Below are positions 8,419-51,802 of a stretch of 52,401 nt of DNA, one piece after another. This stretch comes from Escherichia phage vB_EcoM_4HA13. The stretch's first letter is position 1, and the number at the start of each line of letters is the position of its first letter. The stretch lies in the sequence record NC_049466.2. One strand, written 5' to 3'. The translations under genes and the position numbers were made by a program. The notes below the pieces were generated by a model. It saw only the letters and a list, made by a program, of their open reading frames with translations. It did not search any database and had not been told where the DNA came from.

Positions 8419-8705
8419 AATTGGAAGAATTACCGATTGAGCTTAAAGCTGCAACAAAAGCAGCAGAAGCGCAGCAAACTTATGTCAATCAATTGGTGGA
8501 CTTGTTTAACAAAGGCCAAACCACCATTGAGGTGTTCGATAAAAACCTCAATACTTGGACAGAAGTTCCGCTAAGCGAGTTTAATGCAATGCAGAATAAT
8601 CGTTTGACTGAACTGCTGAAACATAAAGACACTCTGCAAGGTTTATATGACCAGTTGCAAAGTCCGCTTGATGAAGCATTCAAAAATGTTCCGAAGACAG
8701 CATAA
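8415..8705 (+). CDS. Hypothetical protein
   Basis: ATGA overlap with upstream gene. Confidence 0.5.
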   Translation: MKLEELPIELKAATKAAEAQQTYVNQLVDLFNKGQTTIEVFDKNLNTWTEVPLSEFNAMQNNRLTELLKHKDTLQGLYDQLQSPLDEAFKNVPKTA

Positions 8706-9103
8706 TGTCTAACGTGAAACTTGGACAACGTTCCTTAGACAGACTCAGTGGAGTGAATAGTAGTCTAGTAGCAGTATTAAAGAAAGCGTGCGAATCCATG
8801 CCTTTTGATATTACTGTACTAGAGGGCGTTCGTTCTTATGAGCGTCAACAGGAACTATTAAAGCAGGGTGCAACAAAAGTAAGTGTTAGTCGGCACATGT
8901 CCGGCAATGCTATTGACATTGCACCATACCCAATCGACTGGAACGACACAGAACGGTTCAAAATTGTAGCGCATCATATGTTTGCTGCTGCAAAAGAGCT
9001 GGGCATTGTTATTCGTTGGGGAGGTAACTGGAGTCGTCAAGACGAAACAGTTAAGCCAACCTCCTCATTCGTTGATATGCCGCACTTCGAACTTCCGGCA
9101 TAA
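8705..9103 (+). CDS. Endolysin, peptidase M15 family (L-alanyl-D-glutamate peptidase type)
   Basis: Size and motifs (SRHMSGNAIDIAPYP, IDWND, GGNW, HFEL) resemble the T5 endolysin family. Confidence 0.6.
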   Translation: MSNVKLGQRSLDRLSGVNSSLVAVLKKACESMPFDITVLEGVRSYERQQELLKQGATKVSVSRHMSGNAIDIAPYPIDWNDTERFKIVAHHMFAAAKELGIVIRWGGNWSRQDETVKPTSSFVDMPHFELPA

Positions 9104-9121
9104 ATTCCAATAGGAGCATCT

Positions 9122-9403
9122 ATGGAATATCACAAACTACCCGAACATATTGAGCATCTAAAGGCAAAACTTGTCAAAGCTCGTGAACTTTATTCAGAAG
9201 TTGCGCACAAAGAAAATCTGCATACGGCTGGGAAGGTTGAAATCACACTCAACGCAGCTGGTTATTATGGTAAATGTTATATTTCTGGTGAAGCATTGCG
9301 TAAGCTTGTTCATGCTGAAATCGCAGAGCTGGAACAGAAACTGGGCAGCGCTGAAGAACAGCACAAAGTTTTGGAAAAGGTTGCTGTCGGGCTTATTAAA
9401 TAA
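9122..9403 (+). CDS. Hypothetical protein
   Basis: AGGAG RBS. Confidence 0.5.
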   Translation: MEYHKLPEHIEHLKAKLVKARELYSEVAHKENLHTAGKVEITLNAAGYYGKCYISGEALRKLVHAEIAELEQKLGSAEEQHKVLEKVAVGLIK

Positions 9404-9469
9404 GTATTAGTATGCCCCATACCTCAGCAAGTAACTCGATTCATGAATGTTTTAAATCTGGAGTAAATC

Positions 9470-10003
9470 ATGGATTCACAAGTAATAATTGACCAGCTTA
9501 ACCGCGAAGTCAAAGATAAAACTCTGCTTATCCGTTTACATAATTTGCAGAATGGGACTGATATTTGGATTGATGGACTGTGTTGGCGTCTGTATGACTT
9601 CGATTTAGTTGATTACTTCAAAGAAGAGTTCGGCATTGAGATTGATTTACCGTTATCTTTCGATGTTTTGAAATCAGACAATGATTTCATTAACGAAGTG
9701 TGTTTCGGCAAGGTGTTTAAGCAACAAGTTTACGATGATGTAAATGGTCTGCTGGTTAACTATTCTGAAGATGCAATCCGTGAAGGTTTAGACTTAGGAG
9801 TTTCGGCAGAAAACTTTGCAGAAGCGTACAAAGGCCATTACGCAAACTTTATTTCGTTTGCAACTGGCATCTTTGACGAACTCGAACGTCCTGAATTGCC
9901 TGAGCGCTATCGAGACTGGATTGATTACGAGAAATATGCTGAGTGTTTGGAACAACAATACTACTTCGCAAATGGACATGTATTCGATGCAACGTATCTT
10001 TAG
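9470..10003 (+). CDS. ArdA-like acidic anti-restriction protein (tentative)
   Basis: Acidic 177-aa protein; C-terminal WIDYEKYA...YYFANGHVF resembles the ArdA C-terminus as recalled from memory. Confidence 0.5.
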   Translation: MDSQVIIDQLNREVKDKTLLIRLHNLQNGTDIWIDGLCWRLYDFDLVDYFKEEFGIEIDLPLSFDVLKSDNDFINEVCFGKVFKQQVYDDVNGLLVNYSEDAIREGLDLGVSAENFAEAYKGHYANFISFATGIFDELERPELPERYRDWIDYEKYAECLEQQYYFANGHVFDATYL

Positions 10004-10253
10004 TGCGGACTGGTTACAGCCCGGTGAAGTAATTTTCCACGAACCCCGTGGGCATTATTATGAATTACTTCATCGAACTTTAATTAAGTCTGACGTAAAA
10101 GGTGGAAGCTGGTCGAAAGGCTGGTGCTACCAAGAAGTGAAATCGGTGGAAGTGTTGAAGAATTGTATTCGACATGAACCACCAGCGGGAGAAGTTTATT
10201 CCCGACCGAACGAATTGTTCGACGAAGATTGGCGACTTGTTACTCCAGTGTAG
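9972..10253 (+). CDS. Hypothetical protein
   Basis: In-frame ATGs overlapping the end of the upstream gene; start uncertain. Confidence 0.35.
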   Translation: MDMYSMQRIFSADWLQPGEVIFHEPRGHYYELLHRTLIKSDVKGGSWSKGWCYQEVKSVEVLKNCIRHEPPAGEVYSRPNELFDEDWRLVTPV

Positions 10254-10383
10254 TTCCAAGCTGGAACCTTGATGTTCCAAGCGGGTTTGTAACTCGTTTG
10301 GGACTTCTTCTGACCCTTCGGCATTAGTAGGAAGTGCATCGGAGAAGTTTCCAAATCAATTAAAGCCACAACTGCATTATACA

Positions 10384-10500: not shown

Positions 10501-10520
10501 AACATTAGTTGGAAGAAAGA
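10498..10520 (+). promoter_or_regulatory. Conserved motif copy P3 (GAAACATTAGTTGGAAGAAAG)
   Basis: Intergenic; followed by a long hairpin. Confidence 0.5.
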
Positions 10521-11627: not shown

Positions 11628-11932
11628 AACGCAAAACTTTGAAACAAAAGCTCCGTGCACAGGTTCGTAAAACAAACGAACTTCGTAAGCAGGAGCATGA
11701 ACAAGCCGGAATTACAATCAACTTTGAACTTGCAGCAATGCAGTCAGTTGGTATGGCTCACGGCATCATGGCTACAATGATTCATGCCAAGAATCTGTTG
11801 GGCGAAAATGATTCTAAATATCACGAAATTCGTGACACGGCGCAGGAACGTATTGCACAGTGCGTTGTAGCATTAGTTGGAATGGGTATTCCTGCTGATG
11901 TAGTTAATCAGCGTATTGTGCAAGGTCATTAA
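11588..11932 (+). CDS. Hypothetical protein (start uncertain, GTG)
   Basis: Open frame overlapping upstream gene end; contains an internal promoter-motif-like copy at 11871-11883. Confidence 0.35.
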   Translation: MDYQTGSLRSSILKRKTLKQKLRAQVRKTNELRKQEHEQAGITINFELAAMQSVGMAHGIMATMIHAKNLLGENDSKYHEIRDTAQERIAQCVVALVGMGIPADVVNQRIVQGH

Positions 11933-12631: not shown

Positions 12632-12654
12632 GAAACATTAGTTGGAATTGATTC
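12632..12654 (+). promoter_or_regulatory. Conserved motif copy P4 (GAAACATTAGTTGGAATTGATTC)
   Basis: Best match to the consensus; intergenic, upstream of the acidic gene. Confidence 0.5.
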
Positions 12655-13471: not shown

Positions 13472-13903
13472 ATGAACAAGTTAACAGCCTATAACATTGC
13501 AAAGTTGAGGTCTGAAATAAATTGGACTGTAGACAAAGATGGCTACAGGTGTGCTACTGTAAATGGGTACACAGTCAGGAGGCATATATTAAACTTTTAC
13601 ATAAAGTTTGGTTGGCTGCCTGAATATGTAGACCATATTGACAATACTCCAGGAAATGATTGGCCTGAAAACTTAAGAGCAGCAACCGCATCACAAAATG
13701 CCTGCAACTCTAAAATAAGGTCAGATAACACTAGCGGTGTTAAAGGAGTATCTTGGGATTCCTCAAGAAACAGATGGAGAGCAAGAGTAAAGGTCAATGG
13801 CCAAACTCAATCAGTGGGAAGATTTGAGACAATCGAAGAAGCCACAGAAGCTATCCATTCTGCAAGAAAGGTTCTACACAAACATTTTGCCCGCTGTGAT
13901 TAA
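13472..13903 (+). CDS. Free-standing HNH homing endonuclease with AP2-like DNA-binding domain
   Basis: HNH core VDHIDNTPGNDWPENL...SQNACN; AP2-like GVKGVSWDSSRNRWRARVKVNG; codon usage is AT-rich compared with neighbours. Confidence 0.65.
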   Translation: MNKLTAYNIAKLRSEINWTVDKDGYRCATVNGYTVRRHILNFYIKFGWLPEYVDHIDNTPGNDWPENLRAATASQNACNSKIRSDNTSGVKGVSWDSSRNRWRARVKVNGQTQSVGRFETIEEATEAIHSARKVLHKHFARCD

Positions 13904-14748: not shown

Positions 14749-15003
14749 ATGAGCATTAAATCAATTTTAGTTGGTATTGGTGCATTCATTGCACTTCTGT
14801 TTGCAGCATTCTTCAAGGGACGTTCCAGCGGAAAGCAGGAAGTTCAACGAGAAGTTGTCAAAGAGCAAACGAAAGCTGTTGAGGAGGTTGCTCAAGAGCG
14901 AGTAGAAAATGTTAGGGTGGCTAACCGTGTTCTACAAGAAGTTGTTATATCTAGCGATACAAAAGTTGATAAGGAACTCAACGACGAGTGGACGAGAGGA
15001 TGA
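14749..15003 (+). CDS. i-spanin (Rz-like)
   Basis: N-terminal TM helix then a charged coiled-coil-like region; directly followed by a lipoprotein gene. Confidence 0.5.
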   Translation: MSIKSILVGIGAFIALLFAAFFKGRSSGKQEVQREVVKEQTKAVEEVAQERVENVRVANRVLQEVVISSDTKVDKELNDEWTRG

Positions 15004-15233
15004 AGAAATCTTACGCGCCTATTGTTGGTATTCTTGGTATCCTTTTGATTTCGTGTTCGACACCGAGCGTGCCTCCAAACAAGTTAGTAAATGGATATTG
15101 CGATATTGCAAGTCCAATCCTACTGCTGAAATCCGAAATTCCTTTGCTCTCATTGGGGAGCAAACAACAAGTTCTTGCCCACAATAAAATGTGGAAAGAA
15201 AAGTGTTCGACGGAACTTACCCGACAAAAGTAG
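15000..15233 (+). CDS. o-spanin (Rz1-like outer-membrane lipoprotein)
   Basis: Signal peptide with lipobox LISC, Pro-rich mature part; ATGA overlap with i-spanin. Start could alternatively be the GTG at 14988. Confidence 0.5.
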   Translation: MKKSYAPIVGILGILLISCSTPSVPPNKLVNGYCDIASPILLLKSEIPLLSLGSKQQVLAHNKMWKEKCSTELTRQK

Positions 15234-16117
15234 TGACGTCAACAAATGGTATCAGCTAGACGGTGGTGTAAAAGACTGACCGTGGCGACGACGCCATATT
15301 GCTCTGGGCATAACAGTTGAAATTGCTGCCTCCTAGGATTGGAACGTCCCGCTACACATCGTTAGGGTGAGAAGGTTAGTCCACCGATACAAAGGCTTGC
15401 GGCTTACACCGGCCAAAGAAGAAAACGGTGTGCTTGAGAACGAAGCTCCGATGACCCCGTAAAGTCAACGTAATGAACACGAGACGTTCAGGTGTCCTCT
15501 TCCTAAAACAGAACGACGAGAACAAACTCGTAATCAGTTGCGGCAACGTGGTCCGGTCAAAGAACAATGAGCCACAGGTTTCCAAGCATCCGTAAAAGCA
15601 TGGCGTAGTTGACGCGTTAAGCACGAATAGCCCACGTTACGGGCCACAGAATTTGGAACTTGGTATCTGTAATGCGTCGTATTACGAATCATGAAAGCCG
15701 CACATAAGAGTGTGTAGACACATGGACTTAATAGAGGCAGATAAAATAACCAAGTTCCATACCGAAAACCTCCTGCTGGTTATTCTTCCAGATTAATAAA
15801 AGAAATAAGAAGCGTCTGGCATAGTGTAGCGATACACCTTAGTTGCGCTGATTGTGAAGTGTCGAAAAGGTTTCGGCCTGTTTGGGTTTCTCCTCATCCC
15901 GAAGTTTGAGTAATCGACTACTCAATGTTCCTAATCACATGAAATATGCAAGGCAGGGTTCTTGATAAAGTTTACTAATTCTTTATCAGGCGGGTTTAGC
16001 GATTTTCCCGGAAGGTCTCCCATAATGCGGAATTGTATATTGACTAAGCCGAAATAAATATACTCAGTTTCCAGTCTGAACAAAACTGGAATCAAATTAA
16101 CTTTAACTGGAGTTGTT

Positions 16118-18815: not shown

Positions 18816-18924
18816 CAAAGAACTCCCACTGCATAGAGCTGGCTAACTTAGTAGTCGTCGGTAACTACCAGTGGGATTCTTCCTATTTAACCTGGAGCCT
18901 AAAGTGTTGTATCCGTGGGAAAAT

Positions 18925-20361
18925 ATGCAAGCCAGTGATATTGAAACTACTGGATTGCTGAAACAAATGAAAAAGCAAGCGAGTCCTCGTTTGCACAACT
19001 TTGGTTTCATCGATATGATGACCAAAGAAGAAACCGTTATGGAATGGACGGAACGGAAACGTATTCAAGATTATTTGAATACAGGACCAACACTTATCAT
19101 GCATAACGGCGCAACCTTTGACTTTGAAGCATTAAAGTTCTTAGGTTATGACGTATCTAAATGTACTCTGATTGATACTTTGTATCTAAGTTGGTACTTA
19201 GAACCTCGCAGACCTAAACACGGTTTGGAAAGTTACGGTGAAGAATTTGGTGTGCCTAAACCAGTCATTGAAGATTGGGAAAACCAAACTCAGGAAGAAT
19301 ACAACAATCGTGTACTGGAAGACTGTAAAATTCAGTCTCGCCTGTGGGAACAGCAGTACAGCCAACTGTTGCAAATTTATCGTTCACCACAAGAGGTAAG
19401 ACGTTTCGTAGAATACTTAATGACAAAAGCACGTCAACAAGTTATACAGCAACGCACCAAGTGGAAGTTGAATAAAGAAAAGGCTTACGCATTTAAGGCA
19501 ATGTTGGAACCAATGTTGCTTGAGAAAACTTCTGAACTTGAGAAGTCAATGCCGCGTATTGTTGAATATGCGCTCAAAAGCCAGCCAGCAAAAATGTACA
19601 AAATGGACAGAACTTTGTCTGCCGCTGGTATTAAATGGAAAGCTATTTGTGATGCAAATGGTTTAGATTTCCGTGACCCTGATGTTCAAATTAAGTACAT
19701 CAAAGGTTATAAAGAGCCGAATGCAAACTCTCACGTACAGCTTAAAGAGTGGCTGTTCAGTTTGGGTTGGGTTCCTCAAACATTTAAGTTTGACCGTAAT
19801 AAGGAAACTGGCGAAACTCGTCAGATTCCACAAATAACAATTAAGGATGAAGATGGTAATCCTGAGATTTGTCAAAGTCTTCATGACTTGGCTGAATCGA
19901 ATCCCGGAAAAGGTATTGAACATCTTATTGGCTTGGGCGTTTATAAACATCGTCTTAGTGTTGTCAACGGGTTTCTGCGCGATGTTGATGATGAAGGTTT
20001 CCTTACTGCACGTTGTGGTGGCCTTACTAACACTTTACGTCTCAAGCATCGTGAACTCGTTAACCTGCCTTCTATTCGTGTGTTTGGTGGTGCGGAACTC
20101 CGAGGAATGCTTGAAGCGCATTCAGAAGAATACGAACAACTAGGTTCGGATTTGTGTTCTCTGGAAGACCGTTGTAAGCACCATTATCAGTGGGCGTATG
20201 ACCCTGAATATGTTAAGAAGCAGTTAGCTGATGACTATGATGCACACTTAGCAATCGGTGTTATCGGTGGATTCATTACTGAGAAAGAATCTCAGGACCA
20301 CAAAGACGGGATTGCAAAATGTAAGCAACGTCCAATGTTCAAAACAACAAACTATGCGTAA
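18925..20361 (+). CDS. DNA polymerase, family A (T7 gp5-like), N-terminal part ending inside motif B
   Basis: Starts MQASDIETTGLL (compare T7 MIVSDIEANALL, Exo I); Exo II HNGATFDFEAL; ends ...KTTNYA at a stop inside motif B. Confidence 0.8.
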   Translation: MQASDIETTGLLKQMKKQASPRLHNFGFIDMMTKEETVMEWTERKRIQDYLNTGPTLIMHNGATFDFEALKFLGYDVSKCTLIDTLYLSWYLEPRRPKHGLESYGEEFGVPKPVIEDWENQTQEEYNNRVLEDCKIQSRLWEQQYSQLLQIYRSPQEVRRFVEYLMTKARQQVIQQRTKWKLNKEKAYAFKAMLEPMLLEKTSELEKSMPRIVEYALKSQPAKMYKMDRTLSAAGIKWKAICDANGLDFRDPDVQIKYIKGYKEPNANSHVQLKEWLFSLGWVPQTFKFDRNKETGETRQIPQITIKDEDGNPEICQSLHDLAESNPGKGIEHLIGLGVYKHRLSVVNGFLRDVDDEGFLTARCGGLTNTLRLKHRELVNLPSIRVFGGAELRGMLEAHSEEYEQLGSDLCSLEDRCKHHYQWAYDPEYVKKQLADDYDAHLAIGVIGGFITEKESQDHKDGIAKCKQRPMFKTTNYA

Positions 20362-26770: not shown

Positions 26771-26778
26771 CAACATCA

Positions 26779-27671: not shown

Positions 27672-27688
27672 GCGACACGCAATTGTTG

Positions 27689-38514: not shown

Positions 38515-38690
38515 GTTCCCTGTTCCCGGATATAAGATACTTCCTGCATCGTCCATTAATCGAGGACAGTTCTCTTTGTCGTTTATGTGAACTTCAAGAT
38601 GGAACTTACTCGGTTATGGACCTTTTAACATTCCATGATATCCTCGACCTTCGTGAGAAACTCAAACCAGTAGAAGAAGATAATGGCTAA
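38412..38690 (+). CDS. -1 frameshift extension of tail chaperone (GT product)
   Basis: -1 frame is open from 38376 to TAA at 38688-38690; slippery TTTTTTC at 38412-38418; stop overlaps the tape-measure ATG. Confidence 0.5.
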   Translation, partial: FFQARARNQRTETVGGGRSIQAGRAEEFESGDDLSSLFPDIRYFLHRPLIEDSSLCRLCELQDGTYSVMDLLTFHDILDLREKLKPVEEDNG

Positions 38691-41600
38691 TCAAAAAGAA
38701 TTAATGCGCCTTACAGCTCAAGAATTAATTGGGATGGGAGCGCAATACGGTCTCACCTTCCATGCTGGAATGAAGAAGTCGCACATGGTTCAGCAACTTA
38801 GTGCAAGCGCTGCTTCTGGATGGATGGATGTTAATGCAGGATTGACGTCTGGAGTTCCAGAGGATGATGGTATTACTTCATCCTTTGGTGGCTCTTCAAT
38901 GATTTCAGATGCTGCTCACGTAGCACAAATGTTGTCAGGTGCTGGATTCACCGAAACTTTCCATGCTGCAATGAATGGCCCTTCACATCATGTTGAAGCT
39001 ATTCACAACTATATGCAGCAACTTGGCGTAAGCTCTGACGATGTTTGGATGCATATGCCGCACGCTAATCCAAATGTACCTGCTGGTCATTTCGGTATGT
39101 TGAATAACTACATGCGAGATACTTTGCAAGGTCATCAAGATATTATGCCTGAGATTGCTGGTCATTATTCTGGCGATATCATGGGCGAGTACGCTACAGA
39201 CAAAGGTGGCATTTCTGCGTCGTATGAACATTTAGCTCATATGTATGTTGATAAGTCCCAATACAGTAGCGAACATTTATATGGTGCAGACGTATCTCGT
39301 GTTGCATCAAGACTTGCAATTGGTATGGGAAGCAAATTCTCTGAGGTGGCATTCTCTGCTGCACAGGGAGCACATGTTTCTTACATGTCAGCACTTCCTA
39401 ATCTCGGAGACCCATCAATAGTTGGTGGTGTATCTCACCCTCGCGCTGCTTTAAATGCCTCTGGTCTTCCAATGGGTGCGATTGGTTCTGGTATTAATCC
39501 AGAATATTCTTTAGCTGCTTCTCTCACTGGAACTCCTGGATGGAGTCCTTCAAGTAAAGAAGTATATTCCAACGTATCAGATACTGTAAAGTCTTTGGCT
39601 GGAGTATATCGTGGCGAAACTGGAATGGAAGGTCGTCGTCATATTACTTCTGAACGTGATATGATTATGGATTCTGCTTCTCGTTATGCAGATATCTCTG
39701 ATGTACGTTCTGGCTATGCAAACTTGACCAGAGAGTTGACAGATGACCCACACTATTCTGCAACAAACATTCGTGCAATAATTGATAATAATTATGACCG
39801 CATGGATGCAGAGTCAATGGCAGCCCCGAGTGGAGTTGCTAATCCAGATTTGCGACTACCAACGATAGCAGAAACTGGAACTGCTTTCACCACAGATATT
39901 AGCGAGCCAACAAGTTGGAACTCCGCTCGTGCTCGTCGTGAAAGTATCGCTATATCTAACATGGATTCTATTCCGTGGTCTGATATAGAAAATAATTCTG
40001 GCCCAGTTAAGTTCCATAATCTTGAACAAGGTAGTCAAGAGTGGCTGGACTTCCGAAAGAACTACGACATAACAGGTTCTACTGTTGGCGGGTTCCTCGG
40101 TAATAATGCCTACACTCGTCCGTGGGCGGAAATGGTTGACAAGATTGGCTTATCAAGAAGTAAAGAGCCGAGTGCATTTCAACAAAGAATGTTTGATGCT
40201 GGTCATAAAACAGAGGACGAAGCACGTATCAGAGTTGCTAAACAACTCGGTACTGATATCCAGCAAACTGGTGCAATAACCAATGACAATTATCCATCAT
40301 TCATGTATTCGCCGGATGGTCTCATTGGTGATGATGCGATTTGGGAACATAAGAATCCTGAACGTGCTGGCAAATTTGCTAACTTATCTGCTGGCGACCA
40401 TCCAGACTATATGGACCAAGTGCAATTTGGTATGCTTGTATCTGGTCGTTCTCGTGCACTGTTCTCACAAACCATCGGTAGTGAAACCAAATCTCAATGG
40501 ATTGAGAAAGATGAAGGTTGGTACGAAAGAAACAGAAACCGACTAGATTCTACTCTTGGTCGTCTTGATGCTGGTCGAGCATTTGTTCGCGAGAATAATG
40601 ATTTACCTCCAGATGAATTAATTAAAGGCGCTCGTGCAGCAATGATGGGAGAGGGCATCTGGAAAGATGTTTCTCAGAAATCAAATCGTGGATACTCCGC
40701 ATCTGCGGGTACTTCTGCTGACCCATTTATTGCAACCGACACTTCCGCAATAACTCCAGAGTCTATGGCAATGTCTGTCAAGACTGGTATCTTGGCTGCA
40801 CAAGAAGACAATCGTCAGAAAGCTGGAGCTGGACTGCCTTCTGGAAATACCGACCCGTTCGAAATGCAACGTGAAAGTGCTGATGAAGCATTTGATACAA
40901 TGATGCGTCGTGCTGGATATAATAATTTCGGTGGAGGTGGTGGCGGTGGTGGAAGACCACCCAGCAATGGTGGAAGTTTCTACGATGACTTTGGTCGTGC
41001 TGGTGGTGCTCTTGCTGCTGGTGTTGCTGGTGGAAGCATATCGTCTTTAAGTAGTGGTGCAATGCAAGCACTTATGGCTACACCAATGGGCCGTATGATT
41101 GGAATGGGAATTGGTGCAATTCAAATTGGTAACGAAGCTGCGGAAGGGTTGAACGACTTTGTCGGTAATGCTCTTGATGCTGGTTTAGTTAATCCAAATG
41201 AATACTCGTCAATGTCTCAGGGCATGGAAATGTTGGGACTCAATTCTCAACAAGCCGGAAGATTAAATCAAACGACACATAGTGCCTACAACACCCTGCT
41301 AAATGGCGACCCAAGCGGCGCTATCCGCATCGTTCAGGGAACCCGTGGTCTTATCAACATAGGCGACATTCGTGCAACTGAGGGCGACCCAGTGGCCCTA
41401 GCTCGCATTATGCGTGAACGTGGACAGGAGCGGGGATGGAGTCAGGCGCGGATAGCTGGCGCAACTCAAATGGCAGGACTCGACGGCATGGCAAGAGCCT
41501 TTGACCGTGGAGAATACAGCCAGAGCCAAGCGGAGCAGGTCGTTCAGGCTGGACGTGACTCAGACTATGCACAAGGAACAAGTGAGCTAGAAATGTTGCA

Positions 41601-42297
41601 GGGAGAGCGAGCGAGGGCATTGCCCGGCTACAACCTTCCGCAAGCTGCTGTCACATATGGTGGTCCGATTTTCGGTGCTGCTAGTGATGCTGTACTTCAA
41701 GCTCGTGTTGCTGGTGGTCAGGTTGCTTCTGGTGCTCGCTCAGTTTATGACTTTATCATGGGTGAAGAATCTGGTGGTCGTGATTACAATGCTGATGGTA
41801 GTGTTGTAACAAGCAGGACTGGTGCACAAGGAAGAATGCAAGTTCTAAACTCCACCAACCGTGACCCAGGGTTTGATGTGCGTCCTGCCCAAAATGACTC
41901 TCTTGATGAACGTGCTCGTGTAGGTCGCGATTACTTTGATGCGATGTTGAAGCGTTATGGTGATTACGATAAAGCAATGGCTGCGTACACTGATGGACCG
42001 GGAACTGTAGACAGAGCAGTCCAAGAGCATGGCACTGACTGGCTTAATGCCGTCCCAGCACAAGCACAAAACAGAGTTAAAGCGTTCCACGATTGGCAAC
42101 AAAATGGTGGACAGCTTACTGATGGTGCTGGTGGATTTACTCGTAATGGTGTTTCATATGGACAGACTACAGTCGTTCAAGTGAACATTAATGCTAAAGT
42201 AAATGGACAAAGTGCATCAGCAACTGTATCAACTCCAAATGGTGCTTCTGCCTCTCAGCAGATTAACGTTGGAAATGGTGCAATGCAGAAAAGATAA
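38683..42297 (+). CDS. Tail tape measure protein with embedded YqaJ-like PD-(D/E)XK nuclease domain and C-terminal lytic transglycosylase domain
   Basis: 1204 aa after the chaperone; Gly-rich hydrophobic segments; QGSQEWLDFRK...ITGSTV...SPDGL...WEHKNP is a YqaJ-like pattern; C-terminal GEESGGRDYN...AQGRMQV is SLT-like. Confidence 0.7.
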   Translation: MANQKELMRLTAQELIGMGAQYGLTFHAGMKKSHMVQQLSASAASGWMDVNAGLTSGVPEDDGITSSFGGSSMISDAAHVAQMLSGAGFTETFHAAMNGPSHHVEAIHNYMQQLGVSSDDVWMHMPHANPNVPAGHFGMLNNYMRDTLQGHQDIMPEIAGHYSGDIMGEYATDKGGISASYEHLAHMYVDKSQYSSEHLYGADVSRVASRLAIGMGSKFSEVAFSAAQGAHVSYMSALPNLGDPSIVGGVSHPRAALNASGLPMGAIGSGINPEYSLAASLTGTPGWSPSSKEVYSNVSDTVKSLAGVYRGETGMEGRRHITSERDMIMDSASRYADISDVRSGYANLTRELTDDPHYSATNIRAIIDNNYDRMDAESMAAPSGVANPDLRLPTIAETGTAFTTDISEPTSWNSARARRESIAISNMDSIPWSDIENNSGPVKFHNLEQGSQEWLDFRKNYDITGSTVGGFLGNNAYTRPWAEMVDKIGLSRSKEPSAFQQRMFDAGHKTEDEARIRVAKQLGTDIQQTGAITNDNYPSFMYSPDGLIGDDAIWEHKNPERAGKFANLSAGDHPDYMDQVQFGMLVSGRSRALFSQTIGSETKSQWIEKDEGWYERNRNRLDSTLGRLDAGRAFVRENNDLPPDELIKGARAAMMGEGIWKDVSQKSNRGYSASAGTSADPFIATDTSAITPESMAMSVKTGILAAQEDNRQKAGAGLPSGNTDPFEMQRESADEAFDTMMRRAGYNNFGGGGGGGGRPPSNGGSFYDDFGRAGGALAAGVAGGSISSLSSGAMQALMATPMGRMIGMGIGAIQIGNEAAEGLNDFVGNALDAGLVNPNEYSSMSQGMEMLGLNSQQAGRLNQTTHSAYNTLLNGDPSGAIRIVQGTRGLINIGDIRATEGDPVALARIMRERGQERGWSQARIAGATQMAGLDGMARAFDRGEYSQSQAEQVVQAGRDSDYAQGTSELEMLQGERARALPGYNLPQAAVTYGGPIFGAASDAVLQARVAGGQVASGARSVYDFIMGEESGGRDYNADGSVVTSRTGAQGRMQVLNSTNRDPGFDVRPAQNDSLDERARVGRDYFDAMLKRYGDYDKAMAAYTDGPGTVDRAVQEHGTDWLNAVPAQAQNRVKAFHDWQQNGGQLTDGAGGFTRNGVSYGQTTVVQVNINAKVNGQSASATVSTPNGASASQQINVGNGAMQKR

Positions 42298-42302
42298 TGG
42301 AG

Positions 42303-42328
42303 CCGGGATTCGTCCCGGTCTTCGTTTT
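42303..42328 (+). terminator. Intrinsic terminator candidate (CCGGGA-UUCG-UCCCGG then UCUUCGUUUU)
   Basis: Perfect 6-bp stem, UUCG loop, U-rich tail; followed by a degenerate promoter-motif copy at 42332-42342. Confidence 0.5.
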
Positions 42329-42370
42329 AATATTAGTTGAACGTGTATTAATTTCAATAGGTATATCGCA

Positions 42371-43510
42371 ATGCCGTGGATACGCAAGGTTGAGATAATT
42401 GCCTCCCGAAAGGATGACCCAAGCAGGCAAACTGTTTTCACAAAACATAGAATCGACTTTGAAGTTCGTTCGCTTGTTGGGTGGCCCGCCGATACAGCCA
42501 ACATATCGCTATTCAACCTTTCAATTGATGAAGTCAAGTTCTTGCAAAGCAAGGCTTATGGCGATATGTATATCGAAATTCGTGCAGGGTATGTAGAAGA
42601 TGAACGTGGAGTTTCGAGTGGTGGTGTTAATCAACATGCTGTAGACAAGCCAAGTCAGGCAAGGATAGAAGTAAATGGTACACTGCCGACAATCTTCTCT
42701 GGAATAATTACTAATGCCATTGGATTCAGAAGACCACCTGAGCACGTAACTCAGTTGTTTTGTATTTCTAGGGCATATGGTGCATCAACTGATTTCAAAC
42801 AAATGAAATCAATCCCAGCCAAAACTAAACTCATTGACGCAATTCGCTCAATGTGTTCTGACTATGGCTTCGGAACTATTGCAACTTACGGTGTCGAAGA
42901 TGCTGTAATGCAATCTGTATTATCTCGCCCAAGAACTTTCCAAGATACATTCTTGGTTGAATTTAAAAAACTTCTTGGTGAATATAATTTATTATTCACG
43001 ATGACGACTGCTGAAATACAAGTTTTCCCTGATACATTTGGGGATAAAGATGCAGTTAATAGAATGTCAAAGAGCAGGGAACCAATCAAACTTGATGTAA
43101 ACCAAGTGATAGGAAATCCGGTTGCAGGTATATGTACTTACCAACTTTCAACATTCTTAAATCCATCCTTCCAGCCCGGAATGATTCTTGATGTTTCACC
43201 ATTAATAAAAAGCAGCCACAGAAATCCAGATAACACTGTATCCTATGTTGATGATGGTTCTATAATGGTTAACGGTGCTACTTCTGTAACTGGTCAAGGT
43301 CTTGTTTTAAATACCGACCAATCTGTTTTCAGATGGTTAATGGAAGATAAATATTTCATTACAGAAATTGTGCATCATGGTTCCACACACGCACAAGACT
43401 TCCAAACCTCTGCAACAGCACTTCTCGGTGGTAACACCATGATGGGTGCACGTGAAGCAGTTTGGCAAGAAATGTATGCCAATAGTGGAATGGCAATGGA
43501 GTCTTTCTAA
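42371..43510 (+). CDS. Tail/baseplate protein (Mu-like module, putative)
   Basis: Position after tape measure. Confidence 0.45.
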   Translation: MPWIRKVEIIASRKDDPSRQTVFTKHRIDFEVRSLVGWPADTANISLFNLSIDEVKFLQSKAYGDMYIEIRAGYVEDERGVSSGGVNQHAVDKPSQARIEVNGTLPTIFSGIITNAIGFRRPPEHVTQLFCISRAYGASTDFKQMKSIPAKTKLIDAIRSMCSDYGFGTIATYGVEDAVMQSVLSRPRTFQDTFLVEFKKLLGEYNLLFTMTTAEIQVFPDTFGDKDAVNRMSKSREPIKLDVNQVIGNPVAGICTYQLSTFLNPSFQPGMILDVSPLIKSSHRNPDNTVSYVDDGSIMVNGATSVTGQGLVLNTDQSVFRWLMEDKYFITEIVHHGSTHAQDFQTSATALLGGNTMMGAREAVWQEMYANSGMAMESF

Positions 43511-48857: not shown

Positions 48858-50233
48858 TGCTAAGACCAAAGCTCAACCGTATTTGGACTTCTACAAATGC
48901 GAACTTGCGTCGTGACCCAGGCGATGCCAAATACATTCAAGGTTGGATTTCAGAGATTCCAACTTACCAAGTATTGAACTATCTGCAATACAAGGTGGAT
49001 ACCACACTGTTGGCTTTGGCTGAACGTGGTATCTTTGAATGGGGCAGCGATGTAACATATGGCCTTGCTTCTGTTGTTTGGGATGAAACCGATAAACGAA
49101 TTTACGTTTCGACTGTTGGTGCTCCAGATAAAACAAAAGCTCCGTCAGCAAACTCTGCACATTGGACTCCAAGTTCAATCCAAGTTTCTCGTGCTTCGTA
49201 TGACTCCATTGTAGCAGCAATTAATGCGCACATTGCAGACGTGACAGGCAACCCACATAAGCTAACTGCTGGTCGGTTGAATGCATACAACAAGAACGAG
49301 ACAGATGCAATTGTTGCACAATATCGTGCACTTGTTCTTGCCCACAGTTCTGATAAGAATAATCCGCATGGTGTTACTGCAACTCAAACTGGTGCTGTCC
49401 CTTCCACTGGTGGTACATATTCTGGTGACGTAATCTTCAATGCTGGAGTCTTCTTTGATTCTGGCAAGGTCAACAAGATTAATAAGTCTGGTGGACTGTT
49501 CTTGCAGAATGGTGCAGGACAAATTGGTATCAACGATTCTGGCGTAGGGATGGTTGGTCCAACTAACTCTATGTCCAAGATTGTTACTGAGGCTTCATAT
49601 CCGGGGCTTAAGTCTGCACAAGAACCAGATTATGCAGTGCCGATGCCAAACTTCCAGATGAACTGTGTTCGTGATATTAGTATCCAAACAGGTAGTGGGT
49701 ATGTGGATTCTAACTTCAATCCAATATTCTCTGCTGCCAATGGTTCTTTGGAAATTACCAATACCACGCAGGCAGTTAAATACTCAATTACAGGTTCTGA
49801 GACACTTGGCTCTAGCCAAGAGTGGACTATCAGTTTTGATATTCTTGAAGTAACTCCAAGGATTCCGACAGATGATAATGTAACGATATTAATTGGGATG
49901 GTTAACACCTTCATATATCTTACTGGTTCGAGCTTAATTAGAGCTTGGCGTAGTAATGGTTCTATAAGTGACCTAGTTCAATACCGGTTAACTGGACCAA
50001 TCAATACTTGGTATAAGGTTTCTGCAACATTCAAAGGTAATAACATTACCTTGTTCGTTAATGGTGTTCAAGTGGCACAAGTTACCAATGCGTCTGAAAC
50101 TTCTACTGTGGGTGGTGGACCATTTAGGTTCGACAGCTACACTAAGAGTGCCGATAGTATTCGTACTCTTGATGTTCGCAACATCCGTTTGTGGTCCCAG
50201 ACCCTCACCAACAAACAAGTATCAAATCTGTAA
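48857..50233 (+). CDS. Tail fibre protein with C-terminal LamG/ConA-like lectin domain (paralog 2)
   Basis: N-terminal similarity to upstream fibre; C-terminal ...ITLFVNGVQVA... pattern. Confidence 0.55.
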   Translation: MLRPKLNRIWTSTNANLRRDPGDAKYIQGWISEIPTYQVLNYLQYKVDTTLLALAERGIFEWGSDVTYGLASVVWDETDKRIYVSTVGAPDKTKAPSANSAHWTPSSIQVSRASYDSIVAAINAHIADVTGNPHKLTAGRLNAYNKNETDAIVAQYRALVLAHSSDKNNPHGVTATQTGAVPSTGGTYSGDVIFNAGVFFDSGKVNKINKSGGLFLQNGAGQIGINDSGVGMVGPTNSMSKIVTEASYPGLKSAQEPDYAVPMPNFQMNCVRDISIQTGSGYVDSNFNPIFSAANGSLEITNTTQAVKYSITGSETLGSSQEWTISFDILEVTPRIPTDDNVTILIGMVNTFIYLTGSSLIRAWRSNGSISDLVQYRLTGPINTWYKVSATFKGNNITLFVNGVQVAQVTNASETSTVGGGPFRFDSYTKSADSIRTLDVRNIRLWSQTLTNKQVSNL

Positions 50234-50242
50234 GGAATAACA

Positions 50243-50881
50243 ATGGCTCGTGGATATTCACTTGGTGGACTAATTAATGATTTGTATAAGTTAGTCTACC
50301 CTGTTGGAATTTGCATCGATTTCGATAATGCAACAAATCCAAACACAACTTTCCCAGGAACTACTTGGGTACAGATAACTGATAACAGGGTTGTGCGAAC
50401 TTCAACAAGCGCTACAGTTGGAACCAGTCCGGGGCAGATTGGTGCTATAGCTGGTAATGACACCATAACCTTAGTTGAAGCCAACCTACCTAAGCACGTC
50501 CATTGGATTGACCATTCACACGGAATATATTTTAACTCCGGTGGTGGTGGTGTTCACCAACATACAGTATCAGGAACTACCTCCGATAATGGGTGGCATG
50601 CACACGGCATTGCAATGAAGGGGCAGAACTATGGTGGCTCCAACGGTATTACCGCTTCCAACTCTGCCGCAGCGAAAGGATACATGGATACAAATGGTGC
50701 AGGTACACACAACCACTGGTGGAGTGGTGATAGTTCGTGGAGTGGTGACCACGTACATCTAATTTCAGGCAATACTGGTGGTGCATCTATGGCAAACTCT
50801 GGTGACGGCAATGGTTCAAGTGCTTCAATCAATGCTGCCAACTCCTGTCACTACTATGCAAGATGGAAACGCACTGCATAA
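50243..50881 (+). CDS. Gly/His-rich tail fibre or collar-domain protein
   Basis: Gly-rich repeats with repeated His pairs. Confidence 0.45.
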   Translation: MARGYSLGGLINDLYKLVYPVGICIDFDNATNPNTTFPGTTWVQITDNRVVRTSTSATVGTSPGQIGAIAGNDTITLVEANLPKHVHWIDHSHGIYFNSGGGGVHQHTVSGTTSDNGWHAHGIAMKGQNYGGSNGITASNSAAAKGYMDTNGAGTHNHWWSGDSSWSGDHVHLISGNTGGASMANSGDGNGSSASINAANSCHYYARWKRTA

Positions 50882-50893
50882 CATGGAAACAAA

Positions 50894-51235
50894 ATGGAAA
50901 GAATTTCGTTCCAAATGCTGTGGGATTTAATGCACCAATATGGAGTTCTTCATGGACTCCTTGCTGGAGTTACTGCACTAATTCGTGGTGCATATGAAAG
51001 TGAAGGGCTTGCGAAAGCTCTTCTTGATGCCATGCTTTGTTGCGTTATTGGTGTATTTGCTTTTCAAGTTGCTGGAACGTTTGATACTTTCCAAAGCAAT
51101 ATTACTATGCAGTTGATTCTTGCAATGGTGATTGGGGTTGTCGGAGCTAATCTGATTATAACTTCTGTTCGCGATTGCTTTACATCTGCATTGAAACAGC
51201 TTAATCCGCTTACATGGTTTAAGAAGGCCAAATGA
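50894..51235 (+). CDS. Holin-like membrane protein
   Basis: Three hydrophobic segments and a basic C-terminus; directly upstream of a cell-wall hydrolase gene. Confidence 0.45.
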   Translation: MERISFQMLWDLMHQYGVLHGLLAGVTALIRGAYESEGLAKALLDAMLCCVIGVFAFQVAGTFDTFQSNITMQLILAMVIGVVGANLIITSVRDCFTSALKQLNPLTWFKKAK

Positions 51236-51247
51236 ATAAAGGTGCCC

Positions 51248-51802
51248 ATGATTTCAATCAAAGCACTTGTAATCCTGTTGGCATCTTTCAGTACTCAAGT
51301 CCCAGCTTCGGTTGGGACTCTGAACGATTCGCTTACAGATTTTGCAAGTCATTCCTATTTAAATGGAAGTCTCAAACTATCTTCTTCACAACGGAAAGAG
51401 CTAGATTGTTTAACTAAAGTTATCTGGTTTGAAGCTCGTGGTGAGAGCAAACACGGAAAGATTCTTGTAGCTAATGTCGTTCAAAATCGAATGAACTTCG
51501 GAAAGCCATTCGCTACAACCGTTTGTGGTGTTGTCTATCAACGCAGCCAATTCTCTTGGACACTTGAGTCTAAGAAGAAGCATGCTCGCTTCAAAGATGT
51601 TGCTAAGAAGCATTGGAAAACCGAGCAGAAGCAAATAGAAGATACGATTAGTGTTGCAATGAATGTAATATTGTTCGACGCAAAACCAATCACAGAGGCT
51701 ACTCACTTCTGTACCGCTACGGAACGTTGCAGTTTCAAAAATGTAACTAAACTTGGTCGGTATGGAAATCATAAACTGTACAAGTATAAGGGCAATTCAT
51801 GA
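51248..51802 (+). CDS. SleB-type cell wall hydrolase with N-terminal signal sequence
   Basis: WFEARGE...ANVVQNR...VCGVVYQRSQFS pattern; hydrophobic N-terminus; ATG at 51248 with AAAGG RBS. Confidence 0.55.
   Translation: MISIKALVILLASFSTQVPASVGTLNDSLTDFASHSYLNGSLKLSSSQRKELDCLTKVIWFEARGESKHGKILVANVVQNRMNFGKPFATTVCGVVYQRSQFSWTLESKKKHARFKDVAKKHWKTEQKQIEDTISVAMNVILFDAKPITEATHFCTATERCSFKNVTKLGRYGNHKLYKYKGNS

What the first reader, a model, noticed from the sequence alone, without database searches (positions are those of the whole stretch)
8705..51802. Lysis functions are dispersed over three loci
An M15-type endolysin lies in the early region (8705-9103), an i-spanin/o-spanin pair at 14749-15233, and a holin-like gene plus a signal-peptide SleB-type hydrolase at the end (50894-51802). 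The tape measure also has a transglycosylase domain. Two different muralytic enzymes outside a single cassette is unusual and may reflect separate entry and exit roles.
Basis: partly seen in the sequence, partly recalled or inferred. Interest (0 to 1): 0.4.

Follow-up and report, generated by a model that had tools for sequence, protein, structure and literature searches.

The report
Scattered lysis genes of a Chaseviridae phage
The window is a phiEcoM-GJ1-like (Chaseviridae) phage genome whose cell-bursting genes really do sit at three separate places, but this layout is the normal, already published arrangement for that phage group, and nothing found here supports a split between entry and exit roles.

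Summary
Observation confirmed. The 1204-aa tape measure also carries an SLT domain.

The window is a new Chaseviridae (Cleopatravirinae) myophage, about 74% nucleotide identity to Mangalitsa and phiEcoM-GJ1. The same three-locus layout is annotated in Mangalitsa, Myduc, phiEcoM-GJ1 and ST32, and is described in print for SKA49. It is therefore not unusual.

The entry-versus-exit idea is not supported. Entry is covered by the virion tape measure's SLT domain. The M15 gene sits among non-structural early genes. The Hydrolase_2 enzyme carries a Sec signal peptide. In the sister subfamily (pAh6-C, Spp001) the two enzymes are adjacent in one late cassette.

- The pair "signal-less peptidase plus exported Hydrolase_2" is present in all six Chaseviridae genomes examined.
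- The early slot is filled by M15_4, M15_3 or CHAP in different genera.
- Phage T5 has the same pair at separate loci.

Which enzyme is the main endolysin is still untested. Low interest; new member of a known kind.

The parts
8705..9103 (+). Signal-less T5-type M15 (M15C / Peptidase_M15_4) L-Ala-D-Glu endopeptidase, in the early/middle gene block. Its start overlaps the upstream stop codon (TAATG).
   Evidence: Pfam PF13539 E=6.5e-09; PHROG 465 E=2.7e-52. PDB hits 23ri, 8q2g, 2mxz (T5) and 5opz (ChiX). The SRH63xxGxAxD70 zinc motif, W105/W109 and D124-x-x-H127 are read from the sequence. No hydrophobic segment. dN/dS 0.11-0.13 against Mangalitsa and phiA050.
14749..15003 (+). i-spanin: 84 aa, with an N-terminal TMD and a charged, probably helical periplasmic part. 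It has no Cys.
   Evidence: PHROG 1026 E=8.5e-19. TMD at residues 5-23 (Kyte-Doolittle 19-residue window 2.3). Orthologues are annotated as spanins in Mangalitsa and Myduc.
15000..15233 (+). o-spanin: 77 aa outer-membrane lipoprotein precursor with lipobox LLIS|C19 and periplasmic Cys34 and Cys69. Only a 4-nt overlap with the i-spanin gene.
   Evidence: PHROG 1275 E=1.6e-12. Sequence features. Orthologues found in phiA050, Mangalitsa, Okapia and Myduc.
38683..42297 (+). 1204-aa tape-measure-position virion protein. It has a C-terminal SLT lytic-transglycosylase domain (aa 1025-1117, nt about 41755-42033), the likely entry enzyme. It also has an internal YqaJ-like nuclease domain (aa 453-589).
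   Evidence: Pfam SLT E=1.8e-07 and YqaJ E=7.4e-10; PHROG 19855 E=0. Motifs IMGEES, GRMQ, AYTDG and PDG..WEHK. A tail assembly chaperone gene (PF21822) lies directly upstream at 38056-38514. The 4HA13 homologue is found in purified virions at 64-67% coverage.
50894..51235 (+). Lambda-S-family (class I type) holin, 12 nt after the last tail-fibre gene.
   Evidence: Pfam PF05106 E=1.3e-07; PHROG 126 E=5.8e-17. Two strong hydrophobic segments and one weaker one, with a basic C-terminus KKAK. The Myduc orthologue is annotated 'Class I holin - three TMDs'.
51248..51802 (+). SleB-type Hydrolase_2 cell-wall hydrolase with an N-terminal Sec signal peptide (predicted cleavage VPA|SV). The mature enzyme is very basic (net charge +14).
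   Evidence: Pfam PF07486 E=4.1e-17; PHROG 938 E=4.1e-21. SleB PDB hits 4f55 and 4fet align over the FEARGE motif. A short h-region plus an AxA site is conserved in 7 of 7 orthologues. Kyte-Doolittle 19-residue maximum 1.55. dN/dS 0.22-0.25.
6090..6107 (+). Copy of the repeated intergenic 18-mer ACATTAGTTGGAATTGAT, a candidate phage promoter, heading the gene block that contains the M15 gene.
   Evidence: The 18-mer search finds 5 matches against 0.14 expected, at 122, 2705, 6090, 11870 and 12635; the 11870 copy lies inside a gene. A sixth, more degenerate copy of the core at 10503 comes from a separate core search. A terminator-like hairpin at 10274-10304 closes the block. Promoter function is inferred, not shown.
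12635..12652 (+). Copy of the same 18-mer, heading the block that ends with the spanin pair.
   Evidence: Function is inferred, not shown.

Best explanation
The window is a virulent Chaseviridae (Cleopatravirinae) myophage, and its lysis genes have the arrangement that is standard for that subfamily. All five genes serve exit.

Steps shown or read from sequence:
- The M15 L-Ala-D-Glu endopeptidase has no export signal and is encoded in the early/middle block.
- The spanin pair is encoded about 6 kb further on.
- The lambda-S-type holin and the Hydrolase_2 enzyme are the last two genes of the late structural operon.
- The Hydrolase_2 enzyme has a short Sec signal peptide with a conserved AxA cleavage site.

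Steps inferred:
1. The peptidase accumulates, harmless, in the cytoplasm.
2. The Hydrolase_2 enzyme is exported by Sec into the periplasm.
3. When the holin triggers, it opens the inner membrane. This releases the peptidase and collapses the membrane potential.
4. Peptide cross-links (peptidase) and glycan strands (Hydrolase_2, SleB-like lytic transglycosylase chemistry) are cut together.
5. The i-/o-spanin complex then disrupts the outer membrane.

Cell-wall penetration at entry is a separate job, done by the SLT domain at the C-terminus of the virion tape-measure protein.
For: - Identity of the phage: 73-74% nucleotide identity to Carltongylesvirus phages over up to 67% of the late half, a T7-like RNA polymerase, and 107 family records found by terminase.
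- Gene identities.
- Same order and spacing in Mangalitsa (endolysin 8917-9315, spanins 14819-15188, holin 49867-50208, endolysin 50226-50780), Myduc and phiA050; Okapia keeps the spanins and the holin-Hydrolase_2 pair but has a CHAP peptidase in the early slot.
- Both enzymes are kept under purifying selection, dN/dS 0.11-0.25.
- All six Chaseviridae genomes examined carry one signal-less peptidase plus one signal-bearing Hydrolase_2. The peptidase is M15_4, M15_3 or CHAP.
- In pAh6-C and Spp001 the peptidase gene is immediately upstream of the Hydrolase_2 gene in the late cassette.
- Members of all three peptidase types have measured lytic activity: EndoT5, LysPM1 and Spp64 of Spp001, and LysPM2.
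- Entry role of the tape measure: SLT motifs intact, present in 4HA13 virions, and no other muralytic domain in the tail genes.
Against: - There are no expression, zymogram or knockout data for any Cleopatravirinae lysis gene in the papers I could read. Timing is inferred from gene position and a candidate promoter motif only.
- An exported, soluble and active muralytic enzyme should cause early lysis. The model does not explain how the Hydrolase_2 enzyme is kept quiet.
- Curators disagree on its topology: 'SAR endolysin' for Mangalitsa and PP101, but 'No TMD - not SAR' for Myduc.
- No signal-peptide or topology predictor was available, so my call rests on hydropathy and the -3/-1 rule.
- In Pakpunavirus C11 a Hydrolase_2 enzyme with an N-terminal anchor is the gene annotated as endolysin in the 5.5-kb stretch I fetched. 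I did not scan the rest of that genome for a second enzyme. If it is the only one there, a partner peptidase is not always needed.
- The 4HA13 virion list shows only proteins at >=50% coverage, so absence from it is weak evidence.
Confidence: 0.7

Rival explanations
1. One reading: one of the two soluble enzymes serves entry, as a virion-associated or early-acting wall-opening enzyme, and the other serves exit.
For: - The two genes lie in blocks likely to be expressed at different times: 8705 in the early/middle block and 51248 at the end of the late operon.
- PHROG 1259, which matches the CHAP peptidase in the same slot of Okapia, is labelled 'baseplate hub subunit and tail lysozyme'.
Against: - An entry enzyme must be in the virion. 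The M15 gene lies among non-structural early genes, and the protein is a bare 132-aa catalytic domain.
- The Hydrolase_2 enzyme has a Sec signal peptide and so leaves the compartment where virions assemble.
- Neither is in the 4HA13 virion list, whereas the SLT-bearing tape measure is.
- In pAh6-C and Spp001 the two genes are adjacent in the late cassette.
Confidence: 0.04
2. The Hydrolase_2 enzyme next to the holin is the only true endolysin, of the SAR or signal-anchored type and activated by membrane depolarisation. The early peptidase then has a non-lytic job, for example wall remodelling early in infection, exclusion of superinfecting phage, or control of the phage RNA polymerase in the way T7 lysozyme gp3.5 does.
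For: - Holin adjacency, and the published 'holin-SAR endolysin' reading.
- A Hydrolase_2 enzyme with an N-terminal anchor is the annotated endolysin in Pakpunavirus C11.
- The genome has a T7-like RNA polymerase and T7-like order, and the peptidase gene sits where T7 has gene 3.5 (plus my own knowledge of T7).
Against: - The early slot is refilled by three unrelated peptidoglycan peptidases: M15_4, M15_3 and CHAP. This points to selection for wall-cleaving chemistry, not for a protein-specific regulatory contact.
- In Nefertitivirinae the peptidase sits inside the late lysis cassette.
- Spp64 of Spp001 and relatives of each peptidase type lyse cells in vitro.
- The M15 active-site residues are intact.
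- The Hydrolase_2 N-terminus looks cleavable rather than SAR-like.
Confidence: 0.13
3. The M15 peptidase is the main endolysin, released by the large-hole lambda-S-type holin as in T5. The exported Hydrolase_2 enzyme is an accessory that helps only under some conditions, such as slow-growing or stationary hosts or altered peptidoglycan.
For: - In T5, the M15 enzyme beside the holin is annotated as the endolysin, and its lytic activity has been measured. T5 also carries an uncharacterised signal-peptide Hydrolase_2, T5.083, at another locus.
- The holin belongs to the lambda S family, whose members let cytoplasmic endolysins out (plus my own knowledge).
- dN/dS is lower for M15 (0.11-0.13) than for the Hydrolase_2 enzyme (0.22-0.25).
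Against: - The Hydrolase_2 enzyme is present in every Chaseviridae genome examined. It is always next to the holin in Cleopatravirinae.
- Its gene is conserved in sequence, whereas the peptidase has been swapped repeatedly.
Confidence: 0.13

Closest known systems
Cleopatravirinae phages phiEcoM-GJ1, ST32, Mangalitsa, SKA49 (Carltongylesvirus), Myduc and phiA050
   Same: Same gene order and spacing: early M15-type peptidase, spanin pair about 6 kb downstream, and holin plus Hydrolase_2 directly after the tail fibres. Protein identities to the window are 79-92% (M15), 78-79% (holin) and 60-67% (Hydrolase_2).
   Different: - Only about 74% nucleotide identity.
- The spanin genes overlap by 4 nt here, against 77-80 nt in Mangalitsa and Myduc.
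- The nrdB gene that follows the Hydrolase_2 gene in Mangalitsa, ST32 and GJ1 is missing here.
- Myduc has an M15_3 peptidase and Okapia/PP101 a CHAP peptidase in the early slot instead of M15_4.
Nefertitivirinae phages pAh6-C (Aeromonas) and Spp001 (Shewanella)
   Same: The same pair of enzyme types, a signal-less M15 peptidase plus a signal-peptide Hydrolase_2. The Spp001 M15A protein Spp64 is reported as experimentally lytic.
   Different: The two enzyme genes are adjacent in one late cassette: TMD/coiled-coil protein, unknown protein, small TMD protein, M15, Hydrolase_2. The holin and spanins are of other families; no phmmer hit to the window's.
Phage T5 and T5-like Demerecviridae
   Same: A T5-type M15 L-Ala-D-Glu endolysin and a signal-peptide Hydrolase_2 (T5.083, MKAALLLVAALTFSFSSQA|S..., PF07486 E=1.4e-26) encoded at separate loci. 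This has been noted in print.
   Different: In T5 the holin lies beside the M15 gene and the Hydrolase_2 gene is the orphan. Here the holin lies beside the Hydrolase_2 gene and the M15 gene is the orphan. The virion type and genome size are unrelated.
Phage T4 and phage T7 lysis gene layouts
   Same: Virulent phages whose holin, endolysin and spanin genes are not in one cassette, and which carry a separate virion-borne wall-degrading domain for entry. [quoted passage not shown]
   Different: T4 and T7 each have one soluble endolysin (a lysozyme and an amidase). This phage has two, of different chemistry, and one of them is exported.
Lambda-type single lysis cassette (S-R-Rz/Rz1)
   Same: The same functional parts: an S-family holin, a muralytic enzyme directly downstream of it, and a two-component spanin.
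   Different: The spanins lie about 36 kb away from the holin. There is a second muralytic enzyme about 42 kb away. The enzyme next to the holin is of the Hydrolase_2 family and has a signal peptide.

Membership tests
M15C / Peptidase_M15_4 L-Ala-D-Glu endopeptidase (EndoT5 type) | Sequence match to the family profile above the curated cutoff | tested here: met
   PF13539, 36.7 bits against a cutoff of 25, E=6.5e-09. PHROG 465 E=2.7e-52. T5 EndoT5 (2mxz) 5e-18.
M15C / Peptidase_M15_4 L-Ala-D-Glu endopeptidase (EndoT5 type) | Zinc ligands in the S-x-H-x-x-G-x-A-x-D motif plus the C-terminal D-x-x-H, and the conserved Trp near the active site | tested here: met
   SRH63MSGNAID70 aligns with SKH..GDAID of T5. 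RWGGNW109 aligns with RFGADW of T5. D124MPH127 is at the C-terminus. The T5 residue numbers are from my memory.
M15C / Peptidase_M15_4 L-Ala-D-Glu endopeptidase (EndoT5 type) | Hydrolysis of the L-Ala-D-Glu bond of peptidoglycan | not testable with these tools
   Needs purified enzyme and muropeptide analysis.
Hydrolase_2 / SleB-type cell wall hydrolase | Profile match above the cutoff, and the conserved E-x-R-G-E motif that holds the catalytic Glu in SleB | tested here: met
   PF07486, 63.1 bits against a cutoff of 27. FEARGE aligns with GESRGE of B. cereus SleB, 4f55. That this Glu is catalytic is from my memory of the SleB structure paper listed.
Hydrolase_2 / SleB-type cell wall hydrolase | Glycan-strand cleavage (lytic transglycosylase chemistry) | not testable with these tools
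   No phage Hydrolase_2 enzyme with a determined cleavage site was found in the papers read.
SAR (signal-arrest-release) endolysin | An N-terminal, weakly hydrophobic, Gly/Ala/Ser-rich membrane-spanning segment of about 20 residues that is not cleaved by signal peptidase | tested here: not met
   The hydrophobic core is about 10 residues (ALVILLASF). The Kyte-Doolittle 19-residue maximum is 1.55, below the usual 1.6. A -3/-1 AxA-type site follows in all 7 orthologues and in T5.083: VPA|S, APA|S, PASA|G, APASV|G, VHA|E, AMA|S, AQA|A, SQA|S. This is a heuristic only; no SignalP or TMHMM was available.
Sec signal-peptide exported enzyme | A positively charged n-region, a 7-15-residue h-region and a c-region with small residues at -3 and -1 | tested here: met
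   MISIK / ALVILLASF / STQVPA|SV. Cleavage itself was not tested.
Lambda S-type (class I) holin, Pfam Phage_holin_3_1 | Profile match, three transmembrane segments and a short charged C-terminus | tested here: met
   PF05106, 32.4 bits against a cutoff of 23.8. Hydrophobic segments at about 12-34 (weak, 1.28), 42-60 (2.15) and 74-92 (2.42). The C-terminus is WFKKAK. The first segment falls below the strict threshold, so a three-TMD topology is likely but not certain.
Lambda S-type (class I) holin, Pfam Phage_holin_3_1 | Dual-start holin/antiholin motif | tested here: inconclusive
   Met1, Met8 and Met13 are present, but there is no Lys/Arg-Met pattern like that of S107/S105.
Two-component spanin (Rz/Rz1 type) | An i-spanin with an N-terminal TMD and a periplasmic helical domain, an adjacent o-spanin with a lipobox Cys, and at least one periplasmic Cys for homotypic disulfide links | tested here: met
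   PHROG 1026 and 1275. TMD at 5-23. Lipobox LLISC19. The o-spanin has Cys34 and Cys69; the i-spanin has none. The disulfide rule is quoted.
Tape measure protein with a lytic transglycosylase domain | Gene position between the tail assembly chaperone and the baseplate hub, presence in virions, and the SLT catalytic motifs | tested here: met
   The chaperone gene (PF21822) is directly upstream. The orthologous position is annotated in Mangalitsa. The 4HA13 homologue is in virions. E-S, GRMQ and AYTDG motifs are present. Virion presence was not tested for this phage itself.
Single contiguous lysis cassette (lambda type) | Holin, endolysin and spanin genes adjacent in one transcription unit | tested here: not met
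   The spanins at 14749-15233 lie about 36 kb from the holin at 50894. The M15 gene at 8705 lies about 42 kb from it. No holin-like membrane protein lies next to the M15 gene.

The most novel reading that the evidence does not exclude
The signal-less peptidase and the Sec-exported Hydrolase_2 enzyme form an obligate two-step endolysin.

The Hydrolase_2 enzyme would be placed in the periplasm in advance but stay latent on intact peptidoglycan. A possible reason is that a SleB-like enzyme prefers glycan strands whose stem peptides are removed or shortened. The enzyme would become active only when the holin releases the peptidase, which trims stems at L-Ala-D-Glu. The peptidase would then act as the timing key for a pre-positioned glycan-cutting enzyme.

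This would explain three things:
- why an exported soluble muralytic enzyme does not cause early lysis;
- why the pair is kept across Chaseviridae and recurs in T5-like phages;
- why any peptidase family (M15_4, M15_3 or CHAP) can fill the partner slot.
Probability: 0.1. Interest if true: 0.55.

Novelty: new member of a known kind. Interest (0 to 1): 0.2.

Why it matters
For this window alone it matters little. The layout is the expected one for a phiEcoM-GJ1-like phage, and it has been annotated and described before.

The wider pattern seen here is a modest, testable lead. All six Chaseviridae genomes examined keep one cytoplasmic peptidoglycan peptidase and one exported SleB-type enzyme. The peptidase has been replaced at least twice by unrelated families. 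Phage T5 has the same pair.

No paper I could read says which enzyme is the working endolysin or how the exported one is held in check. Answering that would refine the holin-endolysin model for a group of phages now being isolated often for E. coli, Erwinia, Yersinia and Aeromonas biocontrol. It would also show which of the two enzymes is the better candidate as an antibacterial protein.

Tried and rejected
- **A second holin next to the M15 gene, as in T5.** Hydropathy of all early ORFs and PHROG scans of the neighbours found only an unrelated single-TMD protein (7737-8183, PHROGs of unknown function) two genes upstream. Rejected.
- **Further muralytic domains in baseplate, hub or fibre proteins.** None found.
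- **M15 as a universal Chaseviridae core gene.** Rejected. phmmer with four different M15 queries finds nothing in Okapia. A CHAP peptidase sits in the syntenic slot instead.
- **Pantoea phage PA1 'Chaseviridae endolysin' paper.** That genome has 105 ORFs and a lysozyme-like endolysin, so it is not comparable. Set aside.
- **tRNA or a known RNA family in the 884-nt gap after the spanins** (Myduc has tRNA-Arg there). ARAGORN and Rfam gave no hits.
- **Late-region copies of the 18-mer candidate promoter.** No intergenic copy lies beyond 12.7 kb. Timing of the late genes could therefore not be tied to that motif.
- **The phiEcoM-GJ1 genome paper** is not held in the library.
- **Structure prediction and the large protein searches** were not used, because profile matches and motifs already settled the family assignments.

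Full report
**What the window is.** All long ORFs lie on the + strand. The late half matches phiEcoM-GJ1-like myophages (Mangalitsa, Bp7, ST32, phiEcoM-GJ1, Yersinia PYps, Erwinia phages) at about 73-74% nucleotide identity over at most 67% of 22.4 kb. The early region matches the same group at about 75%. The first large gene is a single-subunit RNA polymerase (PF00940). The terminase finds 107 records of the family Chaseviridae. The window is therefore a whole or nearly whole genome of a new species-level member of Chaseviridae, subfamily Cleopatravirinae. The exact Hydrolase_2 protein also occurs on 18 public assembly contigs, one of them 53,675 bp long.

**Checking the observation.**
- 8705-9103 encodes a 132-aa Peptidase_M15_4 protein (E=6.5e-09; PHROG 465, E=2.7e-52). 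It matches solved L-Ala-D-Glu peptidases, including T5 EndoT5 and Serratia ChiX. It keeps the S-x-H-x-x-G-x-A-x-D zinc motif, the conserved Trp and a C-terminal D-x-x-H. It has no hydrophobic segment.
- 14749-15003 encodes an 84-aa protein with an N-terminal TMD, PHROG 'Rz-like spanin' (E=8.5e-19).
- 15000-15233 encodes a 77-aa lipoprotein precursor with lipobox LLIS|C, PHROG 1275 (E=1.6e-12). Its ATG overlaps the i-spanin stop codon.
- 50894-51235 encodes a 113-aa lambda-S-family holin (PF05106, above cutoff; PHROG 126). It lies 12 nt after the last tail-fibre gene.
- 51248-51802 encodes a 184-aa Hydrolase_2 (SleB-type) enzyme (E=4.1e-17). It carries the E-x-R-G-E motif, aligned to B. cereus SleB.
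- The 1204-aa protein at 38683-42297 follows a tail assembly chaperone gene. It carries an SLT domain with E-S, G-x-M-Q and A-Y-x-x-G motifs.
- No other muralytic domain was found in the tail and baseplate genes.

**The layout is the family norm and is already described.**
- In Mangalitsa the annotated genes are endolysin (L-Ala-D-Glu peptidase) at 8917-9315, two spanins at 14819-15188, holin at 49867-50208 and a second endolysin at 50226-50780.
- Myduc has a 'putative peptidase' at 8689-9054, i- and o-spanins at 15548-15971, a 'Class I holin' and a 'cell wall hydrolase' endolysin at 52076-52963.
- The ST32 paper lists ORF24 endolysin, ORF77 holin and ORF78 endolysin, with their phiEcoM-GJ1 counterparts gp21, gp73 and gp74.
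- The PP101 paper states that all phages of the group have the two-gene holin-endolysin module.
- The spanins of phiEcoM-GJ1 are catalogued in the spanin survey. That survey also notes that T4's spanin genes are not near its holin and endolysin genes.

Dispersal as such is therefore neither new nor unusual.

**What the comparison across the family adds.** I fetched six relatives and searched them locally.
- In Cleopatravirinae the slot between the ssb-like gene and the anti-restriction gene always holds a small, signal-less peptidoglycan peptidase, but not always the same one.
  - M15_4 in the window, Mangalitsa and phiA050. M15_4 matches also occur in 22 Erwinia phage records, the same number as the Erwinia records found with the terminase; I did not check that they are the same records.
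  - M15_3 in Myduc (PF08291, E=2e-30).
  - A 158-aa CHAP peptidase in the PP101-like phage Okapia (PF05257; PHROG 1259, E=1e-46).
- In Nefertitivirinae (pAh6-C, Spp001) an M15 peptidase gene lies directly upstream of the Hydrolase_2 gene, at the end of the late operon.
- So the pair 'signal-less peptidase plus Hydrolase_2' is present in all six relatives as well as the window. The dispersal is a Cleopatravirinae trait, and the peptidase partner has been exchanged between unrelated families.
- Both enzymes are under purifying selection, dN/dS 0.11-0.25, with dS near saturation.
- Relatives of each peptidase type have measured lytic activity. One of them is Spp64, from the Chaseviridae phage Spp001.
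- Phage T5 and T5-like phages show the same pair at separate loci. The M15 endolysin lies beside the holin. T5.083 is a 149-aa Hydrolase_2 protein with an obvious signal peptide, annotated only as a conserved hypothetical protein. This was remarked on for T5-like Salmonella and E. coli phages, with the comment that the main enzyme is unknown.

**Signal peptide or SAR.**
- The N-terminus of the window's Hydrolase_2 enzyme has a hydrophobic core of about 10 residues (Kyte-Doolittle 19-residue maximum 1.55) followed by VPA|SV.
- All seven Chaseviridae orthologues, and T5.083, have a short core followed by a -3/-1 small-residue site, although this region is poorly conserved in sequence.
- That pattern fits a cleavable Sec signal peptide better than a SAR domain.
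- Curators disagree: 'SAR endolysin' for Mangalitsa and PP101, 'No TMD - not SAR' for Myduc.
- The Pakpunavirus C11 homologue, by contrast, has a longer anchor without such a site.
- I had no dedicated predictor, so this is a reasoned call, not a proof.

**Most likely mechanism.**
- Read from sequence: gene identities, intact catalytic motifs, presence or absence of export signals, and gene positions.
- Inferred:
  1. The peptidase and the spanins are made from the early/middle blocks. Each block is headed by a repeated 18-mer: the 18-mer search finds 5 matches against 0.14 expected, and a core search adds a sixth copy at 10503.
  2. The holin and the Hydrolase_2 enzyme are made with the tail fibres.
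  3. The Hydrolase_2 enzyme is exported by Sec, while the peptidase waits in the cytoplasm.
  4. Holin triggering releases the peptidase and de-energises the membrane. Peptide and glycan bonds are then cut.
  5. The spanins finish the job.
  6. Entry is served by the SLT domain of the tape measure, a virion protein in 4HA13.
- Not explained: how an exported muralytic enzyme is kept from acting early.

The entry/exit split is not supported.
- The entry enzyme is accounted for by the tape measure.
- The M15 protein is a bare catalytic domain encoded among non-structural genes.
- The Hydrolase_2 enzyme leaves the cytoplasm.
- Neither is in the 4HA13 virion list. This is weak evidence, because only proteins at >=50% coverage are listed.
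- The two genes are neighbours in the late cassette of the sister subfamily.

**Rivals.** Three other readings remain possible, and only experiments can separate them.
- The Hydrolase_2 enzyme is the sole endolysin and the peptidase has another role. This is weakened by the repeated replacement of the peptidase with unrelated wall peptidases.
- The M15 peptidase is the main endolysin and the Hydrolase_2 enzyme is an accessory, as may be the case in T5.
- The two form an obligate two-step pair. This is the novel case.

**Verdict.** This is a new member of a known kind and of low interest (0.2). The small gain is the family-wide pairing and the exchangeable peptidase slot, which frame a clear experiment.

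Noticed in passing
window 38683-42297 (nuclease domain aa 453-589, nt about 40039-40449): The tape-measure-position virion protein contains a YqaJ-like PD-(D/E)XK exonuclease domain (PF09588 E=7.4e-10; PHROG 434 'RecE-like exonuclease' E=4e-20). An apparently intact PDG...WEHK motif is present. The full-length protein is conserved in Mangalitsa, phiA050 and Okapia (48-63% identity), and its 4HA13 homologue is in virions. A nuclease domain inside a tape measure is odd and unexplained.
   Followed up: partly
L003:9739-10215 (Okapia), L007:1690-2055 (Myduc), window 8705-9103: The same early-region slot holds three unrelated signal-less peptidoglycan peptidases in different Cleopatravirinae genera: CHAP, M15_3 and M15_4. 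This is non-orthologous displacement.
   Followed up: yes
L013:1447-1896 (phage T5 gene T5.083, record 42290-42739): T5 encodes a signal-peptide Hydrolase_2 protein (PF07486 E=1.4e-26), annotated only as a conserved hypothetical protein. It lies far from the T5 holin and M15 endolysin genes. This is the same enzyme pair as in Chaseviridae, with the holin adjacency swapped.
   Followed up: partly
window 122-139, 2705-2722, 6090-6107, 10503-10516, 11870-11887, 12635-12652: The 18-mer ACATTAGTTGGAATTGAT is repeated on the + strand only. All copies are intergenic except the one at 11870. The 18-mer search gives 5 matches against 0.14 expected by chance, and the 10503 copy comes from a looser core search. 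All copies lie in the first 13 kb. It is a candidate phage promoter or other regulatory site.
   Followed up: partly
window 2980-3584: Five copies of a 24-nt repeat, about TGCATGTAATATTGTGACAATATT, spaced 74-179 nt apart in a largely non-coding stretch downstream of the RNA polymerase gene.
   Followed up: no
window 18871-21493: The family A DNA polymerase gene is split. The N-terminal part (18871-20361) matches PHROG 17 positions 667-1071. The C-terminal part (20999-21493) matches positions 1073-1232. An HNH endonuclease ORF (20431-20868, PHROG 25862 E=3.7e-24) lies between them. Mangalitsa has one 644-aa gene. No Rfam intron hit.
   Followed up: partly
window 13472-13903: A second HNH endonuclease gene (PHROG 99 E=3e-45) lies between the M15 and spanin loci.
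   Followed up: no
window 15234-16117: An 884-nt stretch with no convincing ORF lies directly after the spanin pair. Myduc has tRNA-Arg at the matching place, but here ARAGORN and Rfam find nothing.
   Followed up: partly
window 51799-51885; L008 (Myduc record 52966-53037): A tiny ORF overlaps the Hydrolase_2 stop codon and encodes a 28-aa peptide with a hydrophobic tail (MNGLTKNMWKEVGFFTTVIGLLIALTYL). Myduc has an unrelated 23-aa hydrophobic ORF at the same place. This could be chance.
   Followed up: no
window 51803-52401: The nrdB gene that follows the Hydrolase_2 gene in Mangalitsa, ST32 and phiEcoM-GJ1 is absent. Only short ORFs with no PHROG match follow.
   Followed up: no
window 7173-9403 compared with L005 (phiA050) 26570-28961: The M15 gene and two neighbours are 90-92% identical in protein to phiA050, a phage recorded with an Aeromonas host (M15 dS 0.56). 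Other genes have dS above 1.1 and 50-84% identity. This suggests a recently exchanged block.
   Followed up: no
window 14997-15003: The i- and o-spanin genes overlap by only 4 nt (ATGA), which counts as the 'separated' architecture. The orthologous pairs in Mangalitsa and Myduc overlap by 77-80 nt ('overlapped'). So there is an architecture switch within one spanin family.
   Followed up: partly
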